Shown one piece after another: positions 3,769-62,776 of a DNA stretch of 64,000 nucleotides. Every line of letters begins with the position of its first letter. Position 1 is the first letter of the stretch. Origin of the DNA: a virus; the IMG/VR virus record IMGVR_UViG_3300029220_000004. The stretch is one strand, 5' to 3'. Made by a program: the position numbers and the translations under genes. The notes below the pieces were generated by a model that was not told the DNA's origin, made no database searches, and worked only from the letters and a program-made list of their open reading frames with translations.

Positions 3769-6700
3769 AAATCAACCGGCAAATCAGATTCGTATGCTTC
3801 AATCTAACTTTGCATCCCTTGGTAGAACAATAGGTTCCTTATTCATTCCTATACTGCAAACAGTACTTCCATATATCAATGCAATAGTAATCGCAATACA
3901 AAGAATGTTCGCTTATATTGCAAAACTTCTTGGAATCAAACTGTCTAACTTTGTATCATCTACTGGCGGTATTTCTGTAGATACAAGTAACATTGCGGAT
4001 GATATGGATAATGCCAGTGATTCTATTGATACTGCAAATAAGAATGCCAAAAAGCTCAAAAAAACATTGTCAGTTCTTTCATTTGATGAACTGAATCAGC
4101 TTAATGACAATTCTGATTCTGGTAGTACAAGTAATCCATCTTCTGGCTCTGGAAAAGGCGGTTTGGGGCATATCAAAGCACTTGATGCAGCTTTGAACGA
4201 TGCTTTATCTGCATATCAAAAAGCATGGGACGAAGCATTCAAGAAAATGTCCAACAGGGCAAATGAAATGGCAGATGCCATTGTAAATGCCTTTAAGAGA
4301 AAAGACTGGAAAGGCCTTGGAAAAATCATGGCTGATGGCATCAACTGGGGAATGCAAAAGCTTTATGATTTCATTAACTGGAATAACGTAGGCCCGTACA
4401 TCACTAAATTCACCAGTGCGTTCACCCAGACTTTCAACAGCCTTGTTGATAATATCAACTGGGATTTGATGGGACGTACCGTTGGAGCTGGTATGAATAC
4501 TATTGTAAATACTGCAAACCAACTTCTGGAAGGAATCGACTGGAAGAACCTTGGTGCTAAATTTGCCAATGGTATCACTGGCCTTGTTCGTGAAGTGAAT
4601 TGGGAAAACTTCGGCAATCTGCTTGGAAATTCCTTTATGCGTGGATGGGATATTTTCTCAGGCTTCGTAGAAAATCTCCAGTACGGAGAAATTGGAACAG
4701 CTGTCGCAGAAGGCTTGAACGGAATCTTTGAAAAGATTAATTTCGGTGAAATTGCTCATACACTTGCAACTGGATTGAATGGTGCTTTTGATACATTGGC
4801 TTCATTTACAGCAAGCTTTAATTGGGAAAATCTTGTTGATAACATTACAAATGGAATCACCACATTCATGCAAGAATTCAACTGGAAAGAGAATGGACAG
4901 AAGTTAGAAGAATTTATTAACAAATTACTCACGTCACTTATCGAGATTGCAAGGGGTGTCGATTGGGAAGCGTTTGGACACAATGTAGGCGTATTCCTCA
5001 GTGAAATTGACTGGGGAAAACATCTTGCACAGTTACTTACGGTTATCGGAGACGTTCTTGGTGGAATCTGGGAAGGACTTGGAACAACATCTGCCGGCAC
5101 ATTTGTTCAGGCAATGGCTGTTTTTGCTATTGGTAATAAGCTCATGCCATTAGTTGATACAATTACTAAGTTTTTTACAGGTGATACTGTATTTGGAAAT
5201 CTTTCTAAAGCTGTACAAGGTATGCTGAGTCCCGCAATCACAGAAGCAGTCTCAACAACTATTCCGGCTCTTGGGACATCGTTAGGCTCACTTGTTGCAA
5301 CTGGTGGTGGAATTGCTCTTGCAGTAGGTGGTGCAGTATTACTTACCAAGAAATTAGCAGGACTTTTTGAAACCATGCAGGGTGGTAATGGAATGACTAC
5401 ACAATATGGTGGTTATCTCCATGATTACGCAACACAGCTGACTGATGTAGCAAATCTTACAAACGATCAATCGGAAGCGTTGTGGCAGTTGATTGAAAAG
5501 GATGAAGAACTTGGAAAAACTCACGATGAAATGTACTCTGATATGGTTGAAAAGCTTAAAGAATACGGAGTGTCCACAGATCAGGCAAAAACCGCTCTTG
5601 AGCAGTATGGCGCACAGGCAGGTGTATCGGCTGAATTTGTTGAAGGCATGACCGATCAAATTTCTGCTCTTGGAGAAGGTGTGTCTGAAGCTGCAAGTAA
5701 ATTTGATACATCCAAAATAAGTGTCGATAATTTGAAAGATACTCTGTACGCATTGAGCCTTTCTTCTACAGAATTCGGAGGTAATTATACGACGGCATGG
5801 AATGCAATAAGCGAAGTGCCTTATAGCAACACAAAAGATGCATTAGACGCGGTCTACACTTCTCTCAAAAACGCAGGTGTTCCACTTGACGAACTTGATA
5901 AGAAGTTAAGAGAAGATTTTCCAGAAGCAACTGCAGCTACTAAAACAGCAGTAGACAAGAATATTGTTGGAGCACAGCAGACTATTTCAACATCAGTTGG
6001 ACAAGCATCTAAAGATACAAAGACAGCCACAAATGAAATGGCAAAAAATGCCACAGATGATTTCTCGGAAATCCAGAAACAAGCCGATACTTACATGAAA
6101 GGCATGGAAAACACAACTACTAGCTCATGGGGCAATTCTTCCAGAGAAGCTACATTGAAAGCCAGGGAAATGAAAAATGCCGTAAGTACAGAGCTTGGAA
6201 ATATGGACAAATCTGTAACAAGCCATTTCCAAAGTCAGTACAACATTGCTTATAAGAAATGGGAGAATATCGGAAGAGATATTTCTTCTTATGTTTCTGG
6301 AAGTATGTCAAAGAGTATGGATAGCTCTTTAAATAGCTTTATGAGAACTATTCGCAGCGCATTCAGTGATATGTACAGCATTGGCCATAATGCGGCTCAA
6401 TCATTAAGAAATGGAATGAAATCCGTGAGAATGCCTACGCTTTCGTATTATATTTCTCAGTGGAAAACACATAGCCTTGGGAACGGCGGTACCAGTTCAA
6501 CCCCTGTCTATAGTCCGAACTGGTACGCTAAAGGCGGTTTGTTCAAAAATGCATCTGTCATTGGTGTAGGCGAAGCAGGACAGGAAGCCGTTCTTCCTTT
6601 GGAAAATCGTAAAGCCATGAAATCCATTGCCGACAGCATCATGTCTGGATATGACGGCAACATGGGACTTACGAAAGATGAGATCATGGAAGCTGTTGAG

Positions 6701-7218: not shown

Positions 7219-7351
7219 TTTTGGTAAAACCAGTAGGCTAGGGTAGCTCCCGAAAAGTGTAATTCCATGATACACCTGCCTACTGTTTTTATAAATCATG
7301 GATCTGTGGCTACAAGGCAGTCACGCATTAACGACATGGAGGTTATCTATT

Positions 7352-55834: not shown

Positions 55835-56132
55835 ATACATGCTGATTGCAATTCCTATGAGGATTATTCCGTTTTTTATCATAGAGCGGGTTAAACCTAT
55901 AATTAAACCGAAAGGATACGCTTGTCCGGTAGTGGAGCGGTATGCAAGCAAACGATCGAGACATCCGATTTAGCAAATATGACTCTACAAAAAAAGAGAA
56001 CAACTTAGTTATTTAAACGCTGATTCTCCACATAAGTTGTGTTGCAATTGTAGAGCACATAATAAAAATATTATCACACATTCAATTCTTTCTCCTGCTT
56101 TTGTAATGGTGCGGAGTGGGAGAAAGATTCTA

Positions 56133-56202
56133 GGGCTATCGCCAAGTGGTAAGGCACAGCACTTTGACTGCTGTATTCGCGGGTTCGAATCCCACTAGCC
56201 CA
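56133..56202 (+). tRNA. tRNA-Gln (anticodon TTG)
   Basis: Manual cloverleaf: acceptor GGGCTA/TAGCCC, D arm CCAAGTGGTAAGG, anticodon stem CAGCA/TGCTG with loop CTTTGAC, T loop TTCGAAT. Confidence 0.75.
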
Positions 56203-56263
56203 GCTTGCCGGGCTGCGCATGTACCTGGCAATGGTTTATTTTACATAGACCCTCCGACGAAAA

Positions 56264-56315
56264 CCCATCTAGCTCAACGGAGCTGATTAAAGGGGCTTCA
56301 AATGTCCCGGATGGG
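56264..56315 (+). ncRNA. cloverleaf-like element lacking a T arm
   Basis: Closing stem CCCATC/GATGGG encloses GCTC-AACG-GAGC and GGGGC-TTCAAAT-GTCCC hairpins. Not a canonical tRNA. Confidence 0.3.
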
Positions 56316-56437
56316 AATCATCGTAAAAACGATGTACTCTATTTATCCATGACATTTGTTGCGGCTGGTGGCAAAGAACCGCAACAGTAGAAGCAAATCA
56401 ACTCAAAATCTGCAATCCGGGAGACTGCTTCTACTCA

Positions 56438-56510
56438 GGAAATTTAGTTCAGCGGTTAGAACGCCCGGCTCATAACCGGGAAGTCCTGAGTTCGAATCTC
56501 AGAATTTCCA
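56438..56510 (+). tRNA. tRNA with CAT anticodon (Met or Ile2)
   Basis: Acceptor GGAAATT/AATTTCC, D arm GTTCAGCGGTTAGAAC, anticodon stem CCCGG/CCGGG with loop CTCATAA, T arm CTGAGTTCGAATCTCAG. Confidence 0.85.
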
Positions 56511-56869
56511 TTTCTTCCGTATGCTACCCATCCGTTTTATGGGCAGAAAAAACTTTCGGATGAGCGTATGTGAATCAGAATGAGCAAAGGTATGTAACGG
56601 CATAGGCTTGTGCTTGATCTGATTTCCCGTCCGATAAATGTTTCTTAGTTTCAATAAGCCATCACAAGTGCACATTGATGGCAGGGAGTTTTCAAGAAGC
56701 ATAAAGTTAAAAGGCATAATAATATCCGAAACAACTCCGTGGAGCATACCACGGTTACCAAAAAGCCGTCAGGTTGGCAAAAATACGATAGTCCAAGTTA
56801 TGAAAAATTGCCTAGTGGAAAGCATAACACGAAAAAATCATTGCTAACCCGGAACAATCTCCGGGTTCT

Positions 56870-56940
56870 GGGGGAATAATACCATAAGGGGCAGAGGGCT
56901 GATTAACAGTACCAGGGCGGTTCAACTCCGCATTCTCCCA
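56870..56940 (+). tRNA. atypical tRNA-like RNA with a TTA (ochre-reading) triplet in the anticodon position
   Basis: Acceptor GGGGGAA/TTCTCCC, T arm GCGG-TTCAACT-CCGC, anticodon arm GGGCT-GATTAAC-AGTAC. Against it: A at position 33, one G-A mismatch and a weak D arm. Confidence 0.35.
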
Positions 56941-57040
56941 TTATCCAATCTGTAAATATTGGATATGAGGAAGCTGTCCGAGATGTAAGAAACAGTCGGT
57001 TTGTGGATTGCCGGTACAAATACGCTGAAAATCCACACAA

Positions 57041-57112
57041 GGCAGGGTAGAGAAGTGGAATCTCACAAGACTCATATTCTTGAGAACGGCGGTTCGAATC
57101 CGCCTCCTGCAA
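57041..57112 (+). tRNA. tRNA with CAT anticodon (Met or Ile2), second copy
   Basis: D arm GAGA-AGTGGAA-TCTC, anticodon stem CAAGA/TCTTG with loop CTCATAT, T arm GGCGG-TTCGAAT-CCGCC. Pair 1:72 is mismatched. Confidence 0.8.
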
Positions 57113-57234
57113 CTTAATCCGTCTATCATTCAGCGGATTAAAACAAATTCTCAATACACCTTCTTTCTATGAATGTGGAACTCAACCCAATTGCTCTTTC
57201 ATTGGAGTGTTTGACCGTTATAGGCGGCAACTAT

Positions 57235-57349
57235 GGCGAGGTAGCTCAATTGGTAGAGCAGTAAAAAGATTGCAAGTCATGTTTGTGACTTCTACAGCAA
57301 TTCTTCCATTACAAGGTACGTGTTGATGGTTCGACTCCATCCCTTGCCA
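57235..57349 (+). ncRNA. 115-nt tRNA-shaped RNA with an extended bulged helix in place of the anticodon arm
   Basis: Canonical acceptor GGCGAGG/CCTTGCC, D arm GCTC-AATTGGTA-GAGC and T arm GATGG-TTCGACT-CCATC. However, 65 nt lie between the D and T arms, forming GTAA/TTAC + GATTGC/GCAATT + AAGTCA/TGACTT helices with a CTACA bulge and a TGTTTG loop. Confidence 0.5.
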
Positions 57350-57503
57350 CTATGTGGTGCTTACAGCAATTATTCTGGATATGACTGTTAATCATAAAAA
57401 CCAAAAGCATCATGAAAATTTTAGGGGACACTTACAGCAACTTATTTATTAATAAAATCTTAGGCGAATATTTTATATTTTTGTGTCCTGAAAGGAGAAA
57501 AAC

Positions 57504-58961
57504 ATGGATTTCGCAAACGCAATGAAAGAAGAAGGTAAATTCACAAGAACTGAAAATGGCGCAGTCGCACTGAGCACTACAAGCGATGCAAGACTTGACT
57601 TGTTTGGAACTGTTGGAGCATTAAGAGATGCTGATGAGAATAGAATCACTACATTGTTCTCAGAAGCGTATGCACAGGACAAGCTCTTTGCAACAAAGAT
57701 TGCTTTTTACGCAAGAGATATTCGTTGCGGACTTGGAGAAAGAAAAACTTTCCGAACCATTATTCGCTATATGGCAGAGTATCATCCAGAAGCGCTCAGA
57801 CCAAACCTTGATTTGACTGGAGTGTTTGGAAGATACGATGACCTCTATGAATTGATTGGGACACCACTGGAAGATGATATGTGGAAAACCATGAAAAATC
57901 AGTTCGAGGAAGATCTGAAGAATCTCAATGATGGCAAAGCAATTTCTCTGCTTGCCAAATGGATTAAAACTGCTGACGCAAGTAGTGCAAAGACTAGAAA
58001 ATTAGGAATTATGACTGCACAGAAGTTAGGCTATCCAGTTTACAACTTTAAGAGAATCGTTCGCAGCATGAGAAAACAGATAGGTGTTGTTGAAAGCCTC
58101 ATGTCTGCCGGTAAGTGGAACGAGATTAAATATCCAGAAGTTCCAAGCCGTGCAATGATGATTTATCGTAGAGCCTTTGCAAAGCATGATCCAGATAGAT
58201 TCAGCGAATTTATCAATAAAGCTGATAAAGGAGAAGCTAAAATCAATGCTTCAACCTTGTATCCATACGACATCGTAGAAAAAATCCTTTATGGAAGAGA
58301 AAACAACAAAGTTCTTGAAGCACAGTGGAAAGCACTTCCAGATTATGTTGAACAGGGAACAAATGCACTGATAATGGCTGATGTATCTGGCTCAATGTAT
58401 GGAAGACCAATGGCAACGTCAATCGGTTTGGCAATATATTTTGCCGAGAGAAATACAGGAGCATATCATAATTTGTTTATGACATTCTCTAGTTGTCCAC
58501 AGATTGTTTCTCTGAATGGAGAAACACTTCATCAGAAAATAATCAATGTTGCAAAAGCAAATTGGGGCTATGGCACAAACCTTAAAGCTGCATTTGAGAA
58601 AGTACTCGATATTGCTGAAGAGAACAACGTTTTACAAGAAGAGATGCCGAAAGCTATAGTCGTTATCTCTGATATGGAAATTGATTATAGTGGGAATAAG
58701 GATTGGACTTTCTATGACAAAATGGAAAAGAAATTCCGAAAAGCCGGATATGTTATTCCGAATATTATCTTTTGGAATGTCAACAGCAGACATGACGTAT
58801 TCCATGCAGACGCCACAAGAAAAGGTGTACAGCTTGCAAGTGGTCAGTCGGTAACAGTATTCAAACAGGTATTACAGAACCTTGGATACAATCCGATTGA
58901 AACTATGGAAAACATAATCAATTCAGAAAGGTACGACTGCATTACAATTGAGAAAATATAA
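57504..58961 (+). CDS. DUF2828/TROVE-like helical domain + vWA (MIDAS) protein
   Basis: 485 aa. N-terminus ...TENGAVALSTTSDARLDLF...FYARDIRCGLGERKTFR (DUF2828 style). C-terminal vWA domain with DVSGSM...T...SDME MIDAS-like residues. The architecture parallels Ro60. Confidence 0.65.
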   Translation: MDFANAMKEEGKFTRTENGAVALSTTSDARLDLFGTVGALRDADENRITTLFSEAYAQDKLFATKIAFYARDIRCGLGERKTFRTIIRYMAEYHPEALRPNLDLTGVFGRYDDLYELIGTPLEDDMWKTMKNQFEEDLKNLNDGKAISLLAKWIKTADASSAKTRKLGIMTAQKLGYPVYNFKRIVRSMRKQIGVVESLMSAGKWNEIKYPEVPSRAMMIYRRAFAKHDPDRFSEFINKADKGEAKINASTLYPYDIVEKILYGRENNKVLEAQWKALPDYVEQGTNALIMADVSGSMYGRPMATSIGLAIYFAERNTGAYHNLFMTFSSCPQIVSLNGETLHQKIINVAKANWGYGTNLKAAFEKVLDIAEENNVLQEEMPKAIVVISDMEIDYSGNKDWTFYDKMEKKFRKAGYVIPNIIFWNVNSRHDVFHADATRKGVQLASGQSVTVFKQVLQNLGYNPIETMENIINSERYDCITIEKI

Positions 58962-58968
58962 AACATAC

Positions 58969-59050
58969 GGAGCGAACTAGGTGTAGTGTAGTGGTTCGAT
59001 TCCACTTGTGGGCGTAGCTCTTGCGAATAAGGTTTCCACCGTTTTTTTTG
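58969..59050 (+). ncRNA. T-arm-containing structured element ending in a T-run, just after the TROVE-like gene
   Basis: AGTGG-TTCGATT-CCACT (58990-59006) lies inside a GGAGC/GCTCT closing stem. T8 at 59042-59049. No acceptor partner found. Confidence 0.3.
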
Positions 59051-59092
59051 ATTTTTTGACGATACAATAAAATCAGATTTGGTTAGTTAAGT

Positions 59093-59175
59093 GGTGCATT
59101 GCTGTAATGGTAACAGAGAGACTTGCTAAGTCTTCCAACAGAAATGTTGTCCGTGTTCGAATCACGGATGCACCG
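59093..59175 (+). tRNA. tRNA-Ser (anticodon GCT)
   Basis: Acceptor GGTGCAT/ATGCACC, D arm CTGT-AATGGTA-ACAG, anticodon loop TTGCTAA, long variable arm CAACA-GAAA-TGTTG, T arm CCGTG-TTCGAAT-CACGG. Confidence 0.85.
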
Positions 59176-59236
59176 TTCCAATGAAATGCAATCATTGGAA
59201 GGATTTCATTTTTATCTTACCTTTCTATGAATGGTT

Positions 59237-59288
59237 TCCAGTACTCCACGTTGGGTGGCTAGTTACGGTTCAAGTCCGTGTACTGGAA
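59237..59288 (+). ncRNA. 52-nt mini tRNA-like RNA lacking an anticodon arm
   Basis: Acceptor TCCAGTA/TACTGGA, D-like hairpin CCAC-GTTGG-GTGG, 5-nt linker, T arm TACGG-TTCAAGT-CCGTG, then TTTTT. Confidence 0.45.
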
Positions 59289-59310
59289 TTTTTGTTTAGA
59301 GAGGTGGATT

Positions 59311-62188: not shown

Positions 62189-62776
62189 ATGAAAAAGATA
62201 CCAACATTATTTGAGCGAGAATTTAAAGACCATAAGGTTGTAAAGGTTCTTCCGAAAGTGCATCCGGGCATGGAATGGGTACTTAAAGGAGAAGGTGTTG
62301 CAACAGTCAAATACGACGGTTCTTGCTGCGCGATAATTGACGGAGAATATTATAAAAGATATGACTGCAAGAAAGACAAAATACCACCAGAGGGATTTAT
62401 TCCTTGTTGTGAGCCAGATTCCATTACAGGTCATTGGCCGGGATGGGTAAAGGTTGATGAGAATAATCCGTCTGATAAGTGGTTTGTAGAAGCATATTAT
62501 GTAACTTCAATGTGGACAAATCAAGGCCTTAAATTGCCGGATGGCACATATGAAGCTTACGGAAAACATTTTCATGGCAATCCGTATAATGATGATTACG
62601 ATGCCTTGATAAAGCACGGCAAAGAAATCGTTGAAGTCGAAAGAACATTCGAGGGAATCAAAAAATATCTTTCTGAACACGAGATAGAAGGATTAGTTTT
62701 CTGGAAAGACGGAAGCCCACAATGCAAAATCAAACGTTCAGATTTTGGCTTTGAATGGCCGGTCAAGAAAGCGTGA
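62189..62776 (+). CDS. minimal ATP-dependent RNA/DNA ligase-like nucleotidyltransferase
   Basis: Motif I KYDGS (ATVKYDGSCCAI), motif IV-like EGLVFW, motif V-like CKIKRSDF. 195 aa. Confidence 0.6.
   Translation: MKKIPTLFEREFKDHKVVKVLPKVHPGMEWVLKGEGVATVKYDGSCCAIIDGEYYKRYDCKKDKIPPEGFIPCCEPDSITGHWPGWVKVDENNPSDKWFVEAYYVTSMWTNQGLKLPDGTYEAYGKHFHGNPYNDDYDALIKHGKEIVEVERTFEGIKKYLSEHEIEGLVFWKDGSPQCKIKRSDFGFEWPVKKA

What the first reader, a model, noticed from the sequence alone, without database searches (positions are those of the whole stretch)
56100..59300. Ro60/TROVE-like vWA protein inside a tRNA array flanked by tRNA-mimicking RNAs: a candidate phage Ro/Y-RNA-like module
The only protein gene in a 3.2 kb RNA-gene block is 57504-58961. 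It has an alpha-helical DUF2828-type N-domain and a vWA domain with a DVSGSM MIDAS motif, which is the domain logic of Ro60 (Rsr). Bacterial Rsr genes (Deinococcus, Salmonella) are encoded next to Y RNAs whose distal module mimics a tRNA. Here the gene is flanked by RNAs that have perfect T arms and acceptor stems but no usable anticodon arm (57235-57349, 58969-59050, 59237-59288). Four ordinary tRNAs are also present. A minimal ligase lies 3 kb downstream.
Basis: inference. Interest (0 to 1): 0.75.

Follow-up and report, generated by a model that had tools for sequence, protein, structure and literature searches.

The report
Phage Ro60-like protein with partner RNAs
A gut phage encodes a ring-shaped Ro60-like RNA-binding protein next to small tRNA-mimicking RNAs that all carry one conserved 'handle' (a short helix plus ACAGCAA). 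The same protein–RNA pairing recurs in phages of many bacterial phyla and appears to be an undescribed relative of the Ro60/Y-RNA particle.

Summary

**Protein.** The protein at 57504-58961 (Pfam DUF2828 + DUF7788/vWA, complete MIDAS) gives a confident model (pLDDT 96). Its seven best PDB matches are all Ro60 structures, aligned over the full length.

**RNAs.**
- 57235-57349 is a real, covariation-supported tRNA-shaped RNA. A 7-bp hairpin followed by ACAGCAA replaces its anticodon arm.
- Two further RNAs were missed: 57354-57414 and 57425-57490. Both have the form [7-bp helix]-NN-ACAGCAA-[variable]-[helix]-G. One carries a tRNA-Asn-like anticodon stem-loop. The other abuts the gene's ribosome-binding site.
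- 58969-59050 is not supported.
- 59236-59288 is a different conserved armless tRNA-like RNA without the motif.

**Across phages.** In 56 diverse loci encoding a homologue (30-73% identity; phages of Salmonella, Listeria, Mycobacterium, Campylobacter, Bacillus and others):
- ACAGCAA is the commonest heptamer beside the gene.
- It occurs 174 times on the gene strand and 15 times on the opposite strand.
- 54 of 56 loci have it within 1.5 kb.

**Relation to known families.** Rfam's YrlA and Y_RNA models do not match these RNAs. The only Rfam family that fits, below threshold, is Dictyostelium Class I RNA, which has the same stem + ACAGCAA + UG design.

**Limits.** Protein–RNA binding and function are inferred, not shown.

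The parts
56132..56204 (+). tRNA-Gln (UUG), first gene of the RNA block
   Evidence: ARAGORN; Rfam tRNA 55.5 bits
56438..56510 (+). tRNA-Met (CAU)
   Evidence: ARAGORN; Rfam tRNA 74 bits
56869..56941 (+). Decayed tRNA-Tyr. The acceptor and T arm are kept; the anticodon and variable arms are degraded.
   Evidence: Local alignment to the intact tRNA-Tyr of relative L002 2358-2442
57041..57113 (+). tRNA-Met (CAU)
   Evidence: ARAGORN; Rfam tRNA 54.6 bits
57235..57349 (+). E1: tRNA-shaped RNA with acceptor, D and T arms. The anticodon arm is replaced by a 2-bp base, an irregular linker, the hairpin AAGUCAU-GUUU-GUGACUU, and then CU-ACAGCAA (57294-57300).
   Evidence: Rfam tRNA 46.3 bits with a 53-nt insert. 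Present in 75 of 80 relatives. Covariation in the acceptor, D, T and distal hairpin helices. The same type occurs in at least 20 diverse loci.
57354..57414 (+). Module B: helix GUGGUGC/GCAUCAU, UU spacer, ACAGCAA (57363-57369), 3' G (57414). Inside is an anticodon-stem-loop mimic, UAUGA-CUGUUAA-UCAUA (57380-57396), resembling tRNA-Asn GUU.
   Evidence: Alignment with relatives shows helix covariation, GGUGCUU/AAGCAUC versus GGACACU/AGUGUCC. Module alignment. Anticodon-like hairpin scan.
57425..57490 (+). Module C: helix GGGACAC/GUGUCCU, UU spacer, ACAGCAA (57434-57440), 3' G (57490). It ends one base before the ribosome-binding site AAAGGAG (57491-57497) of the protein gene.
   Evidence: Covariation GGACAC/GUGUCC versus GGACUC/GAGUCC. 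Rfam Dicty_Class_I_RNA 26.5 bits, below threshold.
57504..58961 (+). Ro60-like protein, 485 aa: alpha-helical DUF2828 domain plus a vWA domain with a complete MIDAS site
   Evidence: Pfam and PHROG 850. AlphaFold2 model pLDDT 96.1. Foldseek top 7 hits are all Ro60.
58969..59050 (+). E2: T-arm-like hairpin plus a U run. Probably a tRNA remnant or terminator; not a supported RNA gene.
   Evidence: Fold z = -0.08. No Rfam hit. Present in 11 of 80 relatives.
59092..59176 (+). tRNA-Ser (GCU)
   Evidence: ARAGORN; Rfam tRNA 52.9 bits
59236..59288 (+). E3: tRNA-like RNA without an anticodon arm. It has an 8-bp acceptor-like stem, a D-like hairpin with loop GUUGG and a T arm, followed by a U run. It has no ACAGCAA.
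   Evidence: Fold z = -2.5, or -4.05 with flanks. Present in 61 of 80 relatives as two types with compensatory changes in three helices.
62189..62776 (+). RNA ligase (RLIG1-like, KxDG motif), 3.2 kb downstream on the same strand
   Evidence: PHROG 14301 E 4.6e-55. Pfam RLIG1 22.9 bits, below its cut-off. PDB 9c6l 'RNA ligase1' E 7.9e-9.

Best explanation
The block encodes a phage ribonucleoprotein of the Ro60/Y-RNA kind.

**The protein.** The DUF2828-vWA protein is a structural homologue of Ro60.

**The RNAs.** Its cognate RNAs share one handle: a 7-bp helix (5' strand consensus RNGACNC), a 2-nt spacer, the single-stranded heptamer ACAGCAA, and a G after the 3' strand. The handle most likely docks on the protein, as the 5' strand of the Y-RNA stem docks on Ro60. 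The rest of each RNA is a variable cargo that imitates part of a tRNA.

**In this window:**
- E1 is a whole tRNA body whose anticodon arm is replaced by the handle. It is a circular permutation of the YrlA-like form seen in FelixO1 and mycobacteriophage Faith1.
- Module B carries a tRNA-Asn-like anticodon stem-loop.
- Module C lies in the gene's own 5' leader, against the ribosome-binding site. There, protein binding would repress translation (autoregulation).

**Proposed role.** The particle presents tRNA look-alikes to enzymes that act on tRNA, such as processing, modification or repair enzymes, exonucleases, or host anticodon nucleases. This would serve the phage's own tRNA set during infection, with the nearby RNA ligase pointing to RNA repair.

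**Shown:** the protein fold, the RNA structures, and the gene-RNA linkage.
**Inferred:** binding, autoregulation, and the decoy/adaptor role.
For: **Fold**
- The AlphaFold2 model has pLDDT 96.1 and pTM 0.94.
- The Foldseek PDB top 7 hits are all Ro60: 9l5y phage phiLo (E 4.9e-7), 1yvr (TM 0.61), 2nvo and others, over 508-575 aligned columns. After them come only isolated vWA domains.

**Linkage**
- In 9 of 9 annotated phages from five phyla, the motif lies in the non-coding flanks on the gene strand, after a helix strand whose complement follows.
- In 56 diverse loci the motif occurs 174 times on the plus strand and 15 on the minus strand.
- Its density is 2.65/kb in the 500 nt upstream, against 0.13/kb in the gene and 0.04/kb on the opposite strand. 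It is the most frequent flank heptamer (103 occurrences). 54 of 56 loci have it within 1.5 kb.
- The strict helix-plus-G test is met at 50.6% of motif sites against 5.7% of random positions.
- The linkage holds without tRNAs nearby, in Faith1 and in Staphylococcus phage S-CoN_Ph9.
- In the reverse test, loci were found by RNA pattern alone. Of 31 with the closing helix, 27 hold the gene; of 49 without it, 3 do. The gene was on the motif's strand in all 30 cases.

**RNA structure**
- E1-type alignment of 29 sequences: 89% of cells are paired, against 39-45% when the partners are slid.
- All 7 acceptor pairs and all 7 hairpin pairs show changes on both sides.

**Permutation**
- The E1 hairpin reads ...GUCAU-G-NNN-GUGAC...-NN-ACAGCAA. 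This is the module helix with its two ends joined.

**tRNA parts**
- 21 of 86 modules hold an anticodon-like hairpin (shuffled mean 1.6, maximum 6).
- A further 21 hold a T loop.

**Context**
- An RNA ligase lies 3.2 kb downstream here, and an RtcB lies 1.3 kb downstream in the Listeria phage.
- The known parallel is Ro60 with Y/Yrl RNAs, including in phages (PMC4201824, PMC12135203).
Against: - No experiment or expression data were available, so protein-RNA binding is inferred from co-location alone.
- The protein is not detectably TROVE by sequence. Pfam gives DUF2828 only. PDB sequence and profile searches find only vWA proteins. hhalign against human Ro60 aligned only the vWA part, with probability 4%.
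- TM-scores to Ro60 are moderate (0.44-0.61), and whether the ring closes was not examined.
- The known Ro60-binding motif (CGAA/GNCGAA) is absent.
- The two middle helices of E1's arm are poorly conserved (63% and 31% paired).
- The loci were chosen through the protein, and many IMG/VR loci are related to one another. The counts are therefore not independent events.
- The decoy/adaptor role has no direct support.
Confidence: 0.68

Rival explanations
1. The odd tRNA-like elements are decaying tRNA genes in a fast-turnover tRNA array and have no function of their own. The protein is unrelated to them.
For: tRNA content varies among relatives. A decayed tRNA-Tyr is present at about 56869-56941. 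E2 is patchy and unstructured.
Against: E1 and E3 keep their helices through compensatory changes. E1-type RNAs persist in loci whose proteins are only 40-73% identical. The inserted arm carries the same helix plus ACAGCAA as non-tRNA modules in unrelated phages.
Confidence: 0.05
2. The ACAGCAA modules are cis-acting signals of phage tRNA or early operons, such as promoter, processing, terminator or leader elements. Host factors read them, not the DUF2828 protein.
For: The modules are co-oriented with tRNA arrays and often interleaved with tRNAs. One module lies in the 5' leader of the gene. A weak promoter-like match overlaps module C.
Against: The modules track the gene even where no tRNA is near. 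Their density peaks within 500 nt of the gene. The helix covaries, so the signal acts at the RNA level. Of loci found by the RNA pattern with a closing helix, 27 of 31 hold the gene. The motif is not repeated before other genes in the window beyond chance.
Confidence: 0.15
3. E1 is a functional tRNA gene interrupted by an intron-like insert. The insert is removed and the halves are rejoined by the downstream RNA ligase.
For: The acceptor, D and T arms are intact and the tRNA model score is above threshold. An RNA ligase lies nearby.
Against: No excision restores a 5-bp stem with a 7-nt anticodon loop; only 2-3 base pairs flank the insert. The insert's conserved part is the handle shared with non-tRNA modules. 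At 53 nt it is far too short for a group I intron. No intron family was hit in Rfam.
Confidence: 0.04
4. The protein works mainly through its vWA/MIDAS domain in protein-protein contacts, for example as a chaperone cofactor, an assembly factor or an anti-defence protein. The neighbouring RNAs are partners of something else.
For: The MIDAS site is complete and invariant. One record annotates a homologue as 'putative structural protein'. Sequence searches detect only the vWA part.
Against: The full-length structural matches are Ro60 only. The helical domain keeps invariant or near-invariant basic residues: R41, R71, R74, R80, R110, K152, R190. The RNA linkage is tight and strand-specific.
Confidence: 0.08

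Closest known systems
Ro60 (Rsr) with Y RNA / YrlA in bacteria, and phage phiLo Ro60 with Yrl1/Yrl2 (PMC4201824, PMC12135203)
   Same: - A helical-repeat ring protein with a C-terminal vWA/MIDAS domain.
- Partner RNAs are encoded within about 1-2 kb on the same strand, often in several copies.
- Each RNA has a terminal stem with a short conserved motif on the 5' side, plus a tRNA-like domain.
- RNA ligase genes lie nearby, as in the Salmonella rsr-yrlBA-rtcBA operon.
   Different: - The protein belongs to Pfam DUF2828, not TROVE, and has no sequence-level match to Ro60.
- The RNA motif is ACAGCAA, not CGAA/GNCGAA.
- The Rfam YrlA and Y_RNA models do not detect the RNAs.
- E1 has normal tRNA topology, with its ends at the acceptor stem, rather than the permuted YrlA topology.
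- Many cargos are anticodon-stem-loop mimics.
- The system is embedded in phage tRNA arrays.
Dictyostelium Class I RNAs (Rfam RF01414; PMC7919456)
   Same: - A short helix joins the 5' and 3' ends.
- A 2-3 nt pyrimidine spacer and then ACAGCAA follow the 5' strand directly (Dictyostelium: GUUGAC-CUU-ACAGCAA...GUCAAC-UG).
- The interior is variable.
- An unpaired (U)G follows the 3' strand.
- Length is about 50-70 nt.
- This is the only Rfam family that aligns end to end with the phage modules (26.5, 23.1 and 19.1 bits).
   Different: - All scores are below the gathering score of 41.5.
- The helix sequence and spacer length differ.
- The Dictyostelium genes are dispersed and have their own upstream promoter element.
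- The only proven direct binder there is the RRM protein Rnp1A/CIBP.
- No link to a DUF2828 protein is known.
- Class I RNAs are described as unique to Dictyostelia.
TROVE proteins TEP1 with vault RNA
   Same: Another Ro60-type module paired with a small structured RNA. This is from general knowledge.
   Different: No sequence or RNA similarity was tested here. TEP1 is a large multidomain eukaryotic protein.

Membership tests
Ro60 / TROVE protein family | Alpha-helical (HEAT-like) repeat domain capped by a C-terminal vWA domain, giving the Ro60 fold | tested here: met
   The Foldseek PDB top 7 hits are all Ro60 (E 4.9e-7 to 1.2e-5, TM 0.44-0.61, 508-575 aligned columns), using a model with pLDDT 96.
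Ro60 / TROVE protein family | Sequence membership in Pfam TROVE (PF05731), or a detectable sequence match to Ro60 | tested here: not met
   Pfam at E <= 1 gives DUF2828, DUF7788 and VWA_2 only. PDB phmmer and profile searches give no Ro60.
Ro60 / TROVE protein family | MIDAS motif (DxSxS...T...D) in the vWA domain | tested here: met
   D293, S295, S297, T358 and D390 are invariant in 122 homologues.
Ro60 / TROVE protein family | Binds Y RNA on the outer surface and misfolded RNA ends in the central hole | not testable with these tools
   This needs a binding assay or a structure of the complex.
YrlA / Y RNA (Rfam RF02553, RF00019) | Terminal 5'/3' stem carrying the GNCGAA(N)G / CGAA motif | tested here: not met
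   The motif here is ACAGCAA. There is no YrlA or Y_RNA hit at E <= 10 in the window block. The only YrlA hit elsewhere, at 22.5 bits, spans two adjacent tRNAs.
YrlA / Y RNA (Rfam RF02553, RF00019) | Encoded within a few kb of the Ro gene on the same strand | tested here: met
YrlA / Y RNA (Rfam RF02553, RF00019) | tRNA-like domain (T arm, acceptor stem, D arm) | tested here: met
   E1 has an unpermuted tRNA body. Permuted T arm-acceptor-D arm inserts occur in FelixO1 and Faith1 modules. A T loop is present in 21 of 86 modules.
Dictyostelium Class I RNA (Rfam RF01414) | Short stem joining the 5' and 3' ends, with the 11-nt motif CCUUACAGCAA next to the 5' strand and a 3' CUG(U) | tested here: met
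   Module C reads GGGACAC-UU-ACAGCAA...GUGUCCU-G. The core ACAGCAA is identical, and 9 of the 11 motif positions match (the two leading C positions read CA).
Dictyostelium Class I RNA (Rfam RF01414) | Reaches the Rfam gathering score (41.5 bits) | tested here: not met
   26.5 bits for window module C; 23.1 and 19.1 bits for Listeria phage modules.
tRNA (Rfam RF00005) | Cloverleaf with a 5-bp anticodon stem and a 7-nt anticodon loop | tested here: not met
   E1 passes the model score (46.3 against 29), but 53 nt replace the anticodon hairpin and ARAGORN does not call it. E3 has no anticodon arm.

The most novel reading that the evidence does not exclude
The phage handle RNAs and the Class I RNAs of Dictyostelium are one RNA family, and DUF2828-vWA proteins (Ro60 paralogues) are their conserved protein partner.

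Pfam DUF2828 is also reported in eukaryotes; papers on plants list the domain.

If this reading is right:
- Class I RNAs would not be unique to social amoebae.
- They would be the Y-RNA equivalents of a second, unrecognised Ro-type particle shared by phages and eukaryotes.
- DDB_G0281243, a protein of unknown function pulled down with Class I RNA DdR-21 (bioRxiv 10.1101/2020.04.05.026054), would be a candidate for that partner.

I could not check whether Dictyostelium encodes a DUF2828 protein, or what DDB_G0281243 is.
Probability: 0.3. Interest if true: 0.92.

Novelty: new variant of a known kind. Interest (0 to 1): 0.8.

Why it matters
**Scale.** Homologues of this protein are in at least 705 sequenced phages, including well-studied and applied ones: FelixO1-like phages, Listeria P100/A511-like phages, Campylobacter and Staphylococcus phages, and cluster L mycobacteriophages. 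They are annotated 'hypothetical', 'DUF2828', 'vWFA' or 'Ro-like RNA binding protein'.

**What the finding adds.** A cognate RNA class with a simple, searchable signature turns an orphan gene into a testable ribonucleoprotein. It would also:
- give names to many unannotated 'gaps' in phage tRNA arrays;
- suggest that phages display tRNA fragments (anticodon loops, elbow plus acceptor) on a Ro-type scaffold, which bears on how phages handle tRNA-targeting host defences and RNA repair;
- offer a second, independent example for understanding how Ro-type rings choose their RNAs.

**The Dictyostelium link.** If it holds, it would give a long-studied orphan RNA class a protein partner and an evolutionary origin.

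Tried and rejected
**Searches that gave nothing useful**
- PDB sequence search with the protein and with a 122-sequence profile found only vWA proteins and no Ro60.
A proper TROVE alignment was not built.
- Rfam at gathering and at permissive thresholds showed no YrlA or Y_RNA family on any module.

**Methods dropped or corrected**
- A lenient helix criterion (at least 6 bp anywhere within 260 nt) is uninformative. It was met at 10 of 15 opposite-strand motif sites. I replaced it with a strict test that has a random-position control.
The replacement 14-base pattern also returns chance matches: 46 of 80 loci had neither helix nor gene.

**Literature**
- 'DUF2828' returns no relevant paper.
- Motif-string searches return only primers.
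- Avesson et al. 2011 and the Sim et al. 2020 review are not held.
- DDB_G0281243 is mentioned only as 'function unknown'.

**Readings rejected**
- E1 as an intron-containing tRNA.
- E2 as a real RNA gene.
- E3 as a decayed copy of the extra tRNA-Met seen in relative L004. In L004, E3 lies downstream of that tRNA.

**Not interpreted**
- Outgroup 'Class I candidates' in the Kjellin supplement (for example A. thaliana ath_can_1, covariance-model score 40) are too few to interpret.

Full report
**What is in the window**

ARAGORN finds four standard tRNAs on the + strand: Gln-UUG 56132-56204, Met-CAU 56438-56510, Met-CAU 57041-57113 and Ser-GCU 59092-59176. The only long ORF in the block is 57504-58961 (485 aa). 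Close relatives form a family of roughly 78-kb gut phage contigs. The tRNA content of the block varies among them. The window itself carries a decayed tRNA-Tyr at about 56869-56941.

**The protein**

- Pfam gives DUF2828 (E 9.5e-42) and DUF7788 (4e-40), plus a weak VWA_2 hit. PHROG 850, 'RNA-binding protein', matches at 2e-136.
- In an alignment of 122 homologues (38-57% identical to the window protein), the MIDAS residues D293, S295, S297, T358 and D390 are invariant. Several basic residues of the helical domain are invariant or nearly so.
- The AlphaFold2 model is confident: pLDDT 96.1, pTM 0.94.
- Against the PDB, the seven best Foldseek matches are all Ro60. They include the Thermus phage phiLo Ro60, Xenopus Ro with and without RNA, Deinococcus Rsr and human Ro60 complexes. 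They align over 508-575 columns, with E 4.9e-7 to 1.2e-5 and TM up to 0.61. Every later hit is an isolated vWA domain.
- Sequence methods do not see this relationship.

So the protein works like Ro60 in architecture, but it is not a Pfam TROVE member. Homologues occur in 705 phage records. These cover FelixO1-like phages, Listeria, Campylobacter, Staphylococcus, Enterococcus, Bacillus, Vibrio and Aeromonas phages, and mycobacteriophages where the protein is already labelled 'Ro-like RNA binding protein'.

**The tRNA-shaped RNA E1 (57235-57349)**

- The Rfam tRNA model scores it at 46.3 bits, with 53 nt in place of the anticodon hairpin.
- It is present in 75 of 80 related loci, at identities down to 70%.
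- A covariance model built from it finds 112-130-nt relatives at 52-83 bits in at least 20 loci whose proteins are only 40-73% identical. There are often several per locus.
- On 29 such sequences, 89% of cells pair, against 39-45% when the partners are slid by 1-3 columns.
- All 7 acceptor pairs, 3 of 4 D-stem pairs, 4 of 5 T-stem pairs, both pairs at the base of the arm and all 7 pairs of the distal hairpin show changes on both sides.
- The two middle helices I proposed are weak, at 63% and 31% paired.
- That alignment is fitted to the model, which favours the structure. However, an independent MAFFT/RNAalifold run on close relatives gave the same helices.
- The arm is conserved as ...GUCAU-G-NNN-GUGAC...-NN-ACAGCAA.

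**The handle**

ACAGCAA occurs three times on the + strand within 150 nt: at 57294 inside E1, and at 57363 and 57434. TACAGCAA occurs 8 times in the window against 2.4 expected.

- **Module B (57354-57414):** GUGGUGC-UU-ACAGCAA...GCAUCAU-G.
- **Module C (57425-57490):** GGGACAC-UU-ACAGCAA...GUGUCCU-G.

Both helices covary in more distant relatives. Module C ends one base before the ribosome-binding site. Some relatives carry one or two further E1-type paralogues between E1 and B.

**Generality across phages**

In nine annotated phages from unrelated hosts, the heptamer lies in the non-coding DNA beside the gene. The hosts are Salmonella, Mycobacterium, Listeria, Campylobacter, Staphylococcus, Enterococcus, Bacillus, Sinorhizobium and Vibrio. 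All copies are on the gene strand and none on the opposite strand. The flanking copies follow, 0-2 nt downstream, a helix strand whose complement lies 19-110 nt further on.

| Measure across 56 diverse loci (359 kb) | Result |
|---|---|
| Motif on gene strand / opposite strand | 174 / 15 |
| Density, 500 nt upstream of the gene | 2.65 per kb |
| Density, 500 nt downstream | 1.06 per kb |
| Density inside the gene | 0.13 per kb |
| Density on the opposite strand | 0.02-0.11 per kb |
| Rank among flank heptamers | first (103; tRNA T-loop word GGTTCGA has 66) |
| Loci with the motif within 1.5 kb | 54 of 56 |
| 7-bp helix at spacer 2 plus a following G | 50.6% of motif sites, 5.7% of random positions |
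| Base after the 3' strand is G | 85 of 110 |
| 5' strand consensus | RNGACNC |

The linkage does not depend on tRNAs. Faith1 and Staphylococcus phage S-CoN_Ph9 have three modules next to the gene and no tRNA nearby.

I also ran the reverse test, scanning IMG/VR with the RNA pattern alone:
- 27 of 31 loci with a closing helix hold the gene.
- 3 of 49 without a closing helix hold it.
- The gene was always on the motif's strand.
- Most of these loci belong to one phage group, so this is supportive rather than independent evidence.

**One object with two topologies**

In FelixO1 and Faith1, one module has a permuted tRNA-like insert. Its order is helix 5' strand, ACAGCAA, linker, T arm, acceptor hairpin, D arm, linker, helix 3' strand. 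This is the YrlA layout.

E1 has the same connectivity. The difference is that its ends are at the acceptor stem and its handle helix is closed by a short loop. The conserved GUCAU-G and GUGAC of the module ends are simply joined.

Among 86 modules, 21 carry a hairpin with a stem of at least 4 bp and a 7-nt loop CUNNNRN, the geometry of an anticodon arm. Shuffled inserts give a mean of 1.6 and a maximum of 6. The triplets are UUU, GCA, UGA, GUU, GAU and others. Another 21 modules carry a T loop. Module B has UAUGA-CUGUUAA-UCAUA, which resembles the tRNA-Asn anticodon arm (that comparison is from my own knowledge of the E. coli sequence).

- **E2 (58969-59050).** It folds no better than shuffled sequence, has no Rfam hit, and occurs in 11 of 80 relatives. 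I treat it as a remnant or terminator.
- **E3 (59236-59288).** It is real but different. It has an 8-bp acceptor-like stem, a D-like hairpin with loop GUUGG and a T arm, then a U run. It has no anticodon arm and no ACAGCAA. It occurs in 61 of 80 relatives as two types with compensatory differences in all three helices. Its role is unexplained.

**Comparison with known systems**

Bacterial and phage Ro60 proteins are encoded next to Y/Yrl RNAs. Those RNAs have a terminal stem, a CGAA/GNCGAA motif and often a tRNA-like domain (PMC4201824, PMC12135203). The present system has the same logic but differs in three ways:
- a different protein family by sequence;
- a different RNA motif;
- a tRNA-topology variant of the RNA.

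The Rfam YrlA and Y_RNA models do not detect these RNAs. I found no paper on DUF2828 proteins or their RNAs in the searchable library. Subscription-journal papers are not covered by that library.

Of 4227 Rfam families, the only one that aligns end to end with the modules is Dictyostelium Class I RNA. It scores 26.5 bits on module C, and 23.1 and 19.1 bits on two Listeria phage modules. All of these are below the gathering score of 41.5.

Published Class I sequences read GUUGAC-CUU-ACAGCAA-variable-GUCAAC-UG. They therefore share with the phage modules:
- the terminal helix;
- the pyrimidine spacer;
- the identical heptamer;
- the variable interior;
- the unpaired (U)G at the 3' end.

Class I RNAs are reported as unique to Dictyostelia. 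The RRM protein Rnp1A is their one proven direct binder. DDB_G0281243 is an uncharacterised co-purifying protein (PMC7919456; bioRxiv 10.1101/2020.04.05.026054). Papers on plants list the DUF2828 domain. I could not test whether Dictyostelium has such a protein, so this remains a lead.

**Mechanism**

The best-supported reading is a Ro-type particle. The protein binds the handle, and the cargo imitates tRNA parts.
- *Inferred from position:* module C, abutting the ribosome-binding site, is a plausible autoregulatory operator.
- *Inferred from the cargo types and the RNA ligase or RtcB neighbours:* the particle engages enzymes that act on tRNA, for repair, quality control, or as a decoy against tRNA-targeting defence.

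None of these functional steps has been shown.

**Verdict**

This is a new variant of a known kind. It has a widespread, simple and previously unannotated RNA signature.

Noticed in passing
window 59236-59288 (with U run to about 59294): A conserved tRNA-like RNA lacking an anticodon arm: an acceptor-like stem, a D-like hairpin with loop GUUGG and a T arm. It lies just before the next gene's ribosome-binding site. With its flanks, the fold pairs CCUUUCUAU with UAGAGAGG, which would cover that ribosome-binding site (z = -4.05). Function unknown.
   Followed up: partly
window 59176-59200: A hairpin directly after tRNA-Ser with an 8-9-bp stem and a 7-nt loop AAUGCAA. Relatives have different stems but a similar loop: AUUGCCA in L004 and L036, ACUGCAA in L013. 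It was flagged as terminator-like.
   Followed up: no
window 56869-56941: A decayed tRNA-Tyr. Relatives have an intact tRNA-Tyr (GUA) here. The window copy has lost the anticodon and variable arms.
   Followed up: yes
window 7231-7301: An Rfam int-alpA RNA match above threshold (54 bits against 35.8), far from the finding.
   Followed up: no
L083 (Listeria phage LP-083-2) 2465-3016: A ROOL RNA match (87.4 bits, just under the gathering score of 99.1). It lies inside the tRNA array, about 1 kb upstream of the DUF2828 gene. An RtcB ligase lies 1.3 kb downstream of the gene.
   Followed up: no
L085 (Staphylococcus phage S-CoN_Ph9) 4510-4857: Two tiny annotated 'hypothetical protein' ORFs (4510-4599 and 4729-4857) overlap handle modules whose ACAGCAA lies at 4532 and 4681; the third module (4609) falls in the gap between them. 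The ORFs are probably mis-annotated RNA genes.
   Followed up: partly
window 59099-59106, within tRNA-Ser: The D-arm region of tRNA-Ser contains UUGCUGUA, the exact complement of UACAGCAA. Relatives keep it. This may be coincidence.
   Followed up: no
Supplemental Table S4 of PMC7919456: One Arabidopsis 'outgroup candidate' dismissed by the authors (ath_can_1, covariance-model score 40) reads GUUUUC-AUU-ACAGCAA...GAAAAC-UG, a full handle. Plants encode DUF2828 proteins. A single case cannot be interpreted.
   Followed up: no
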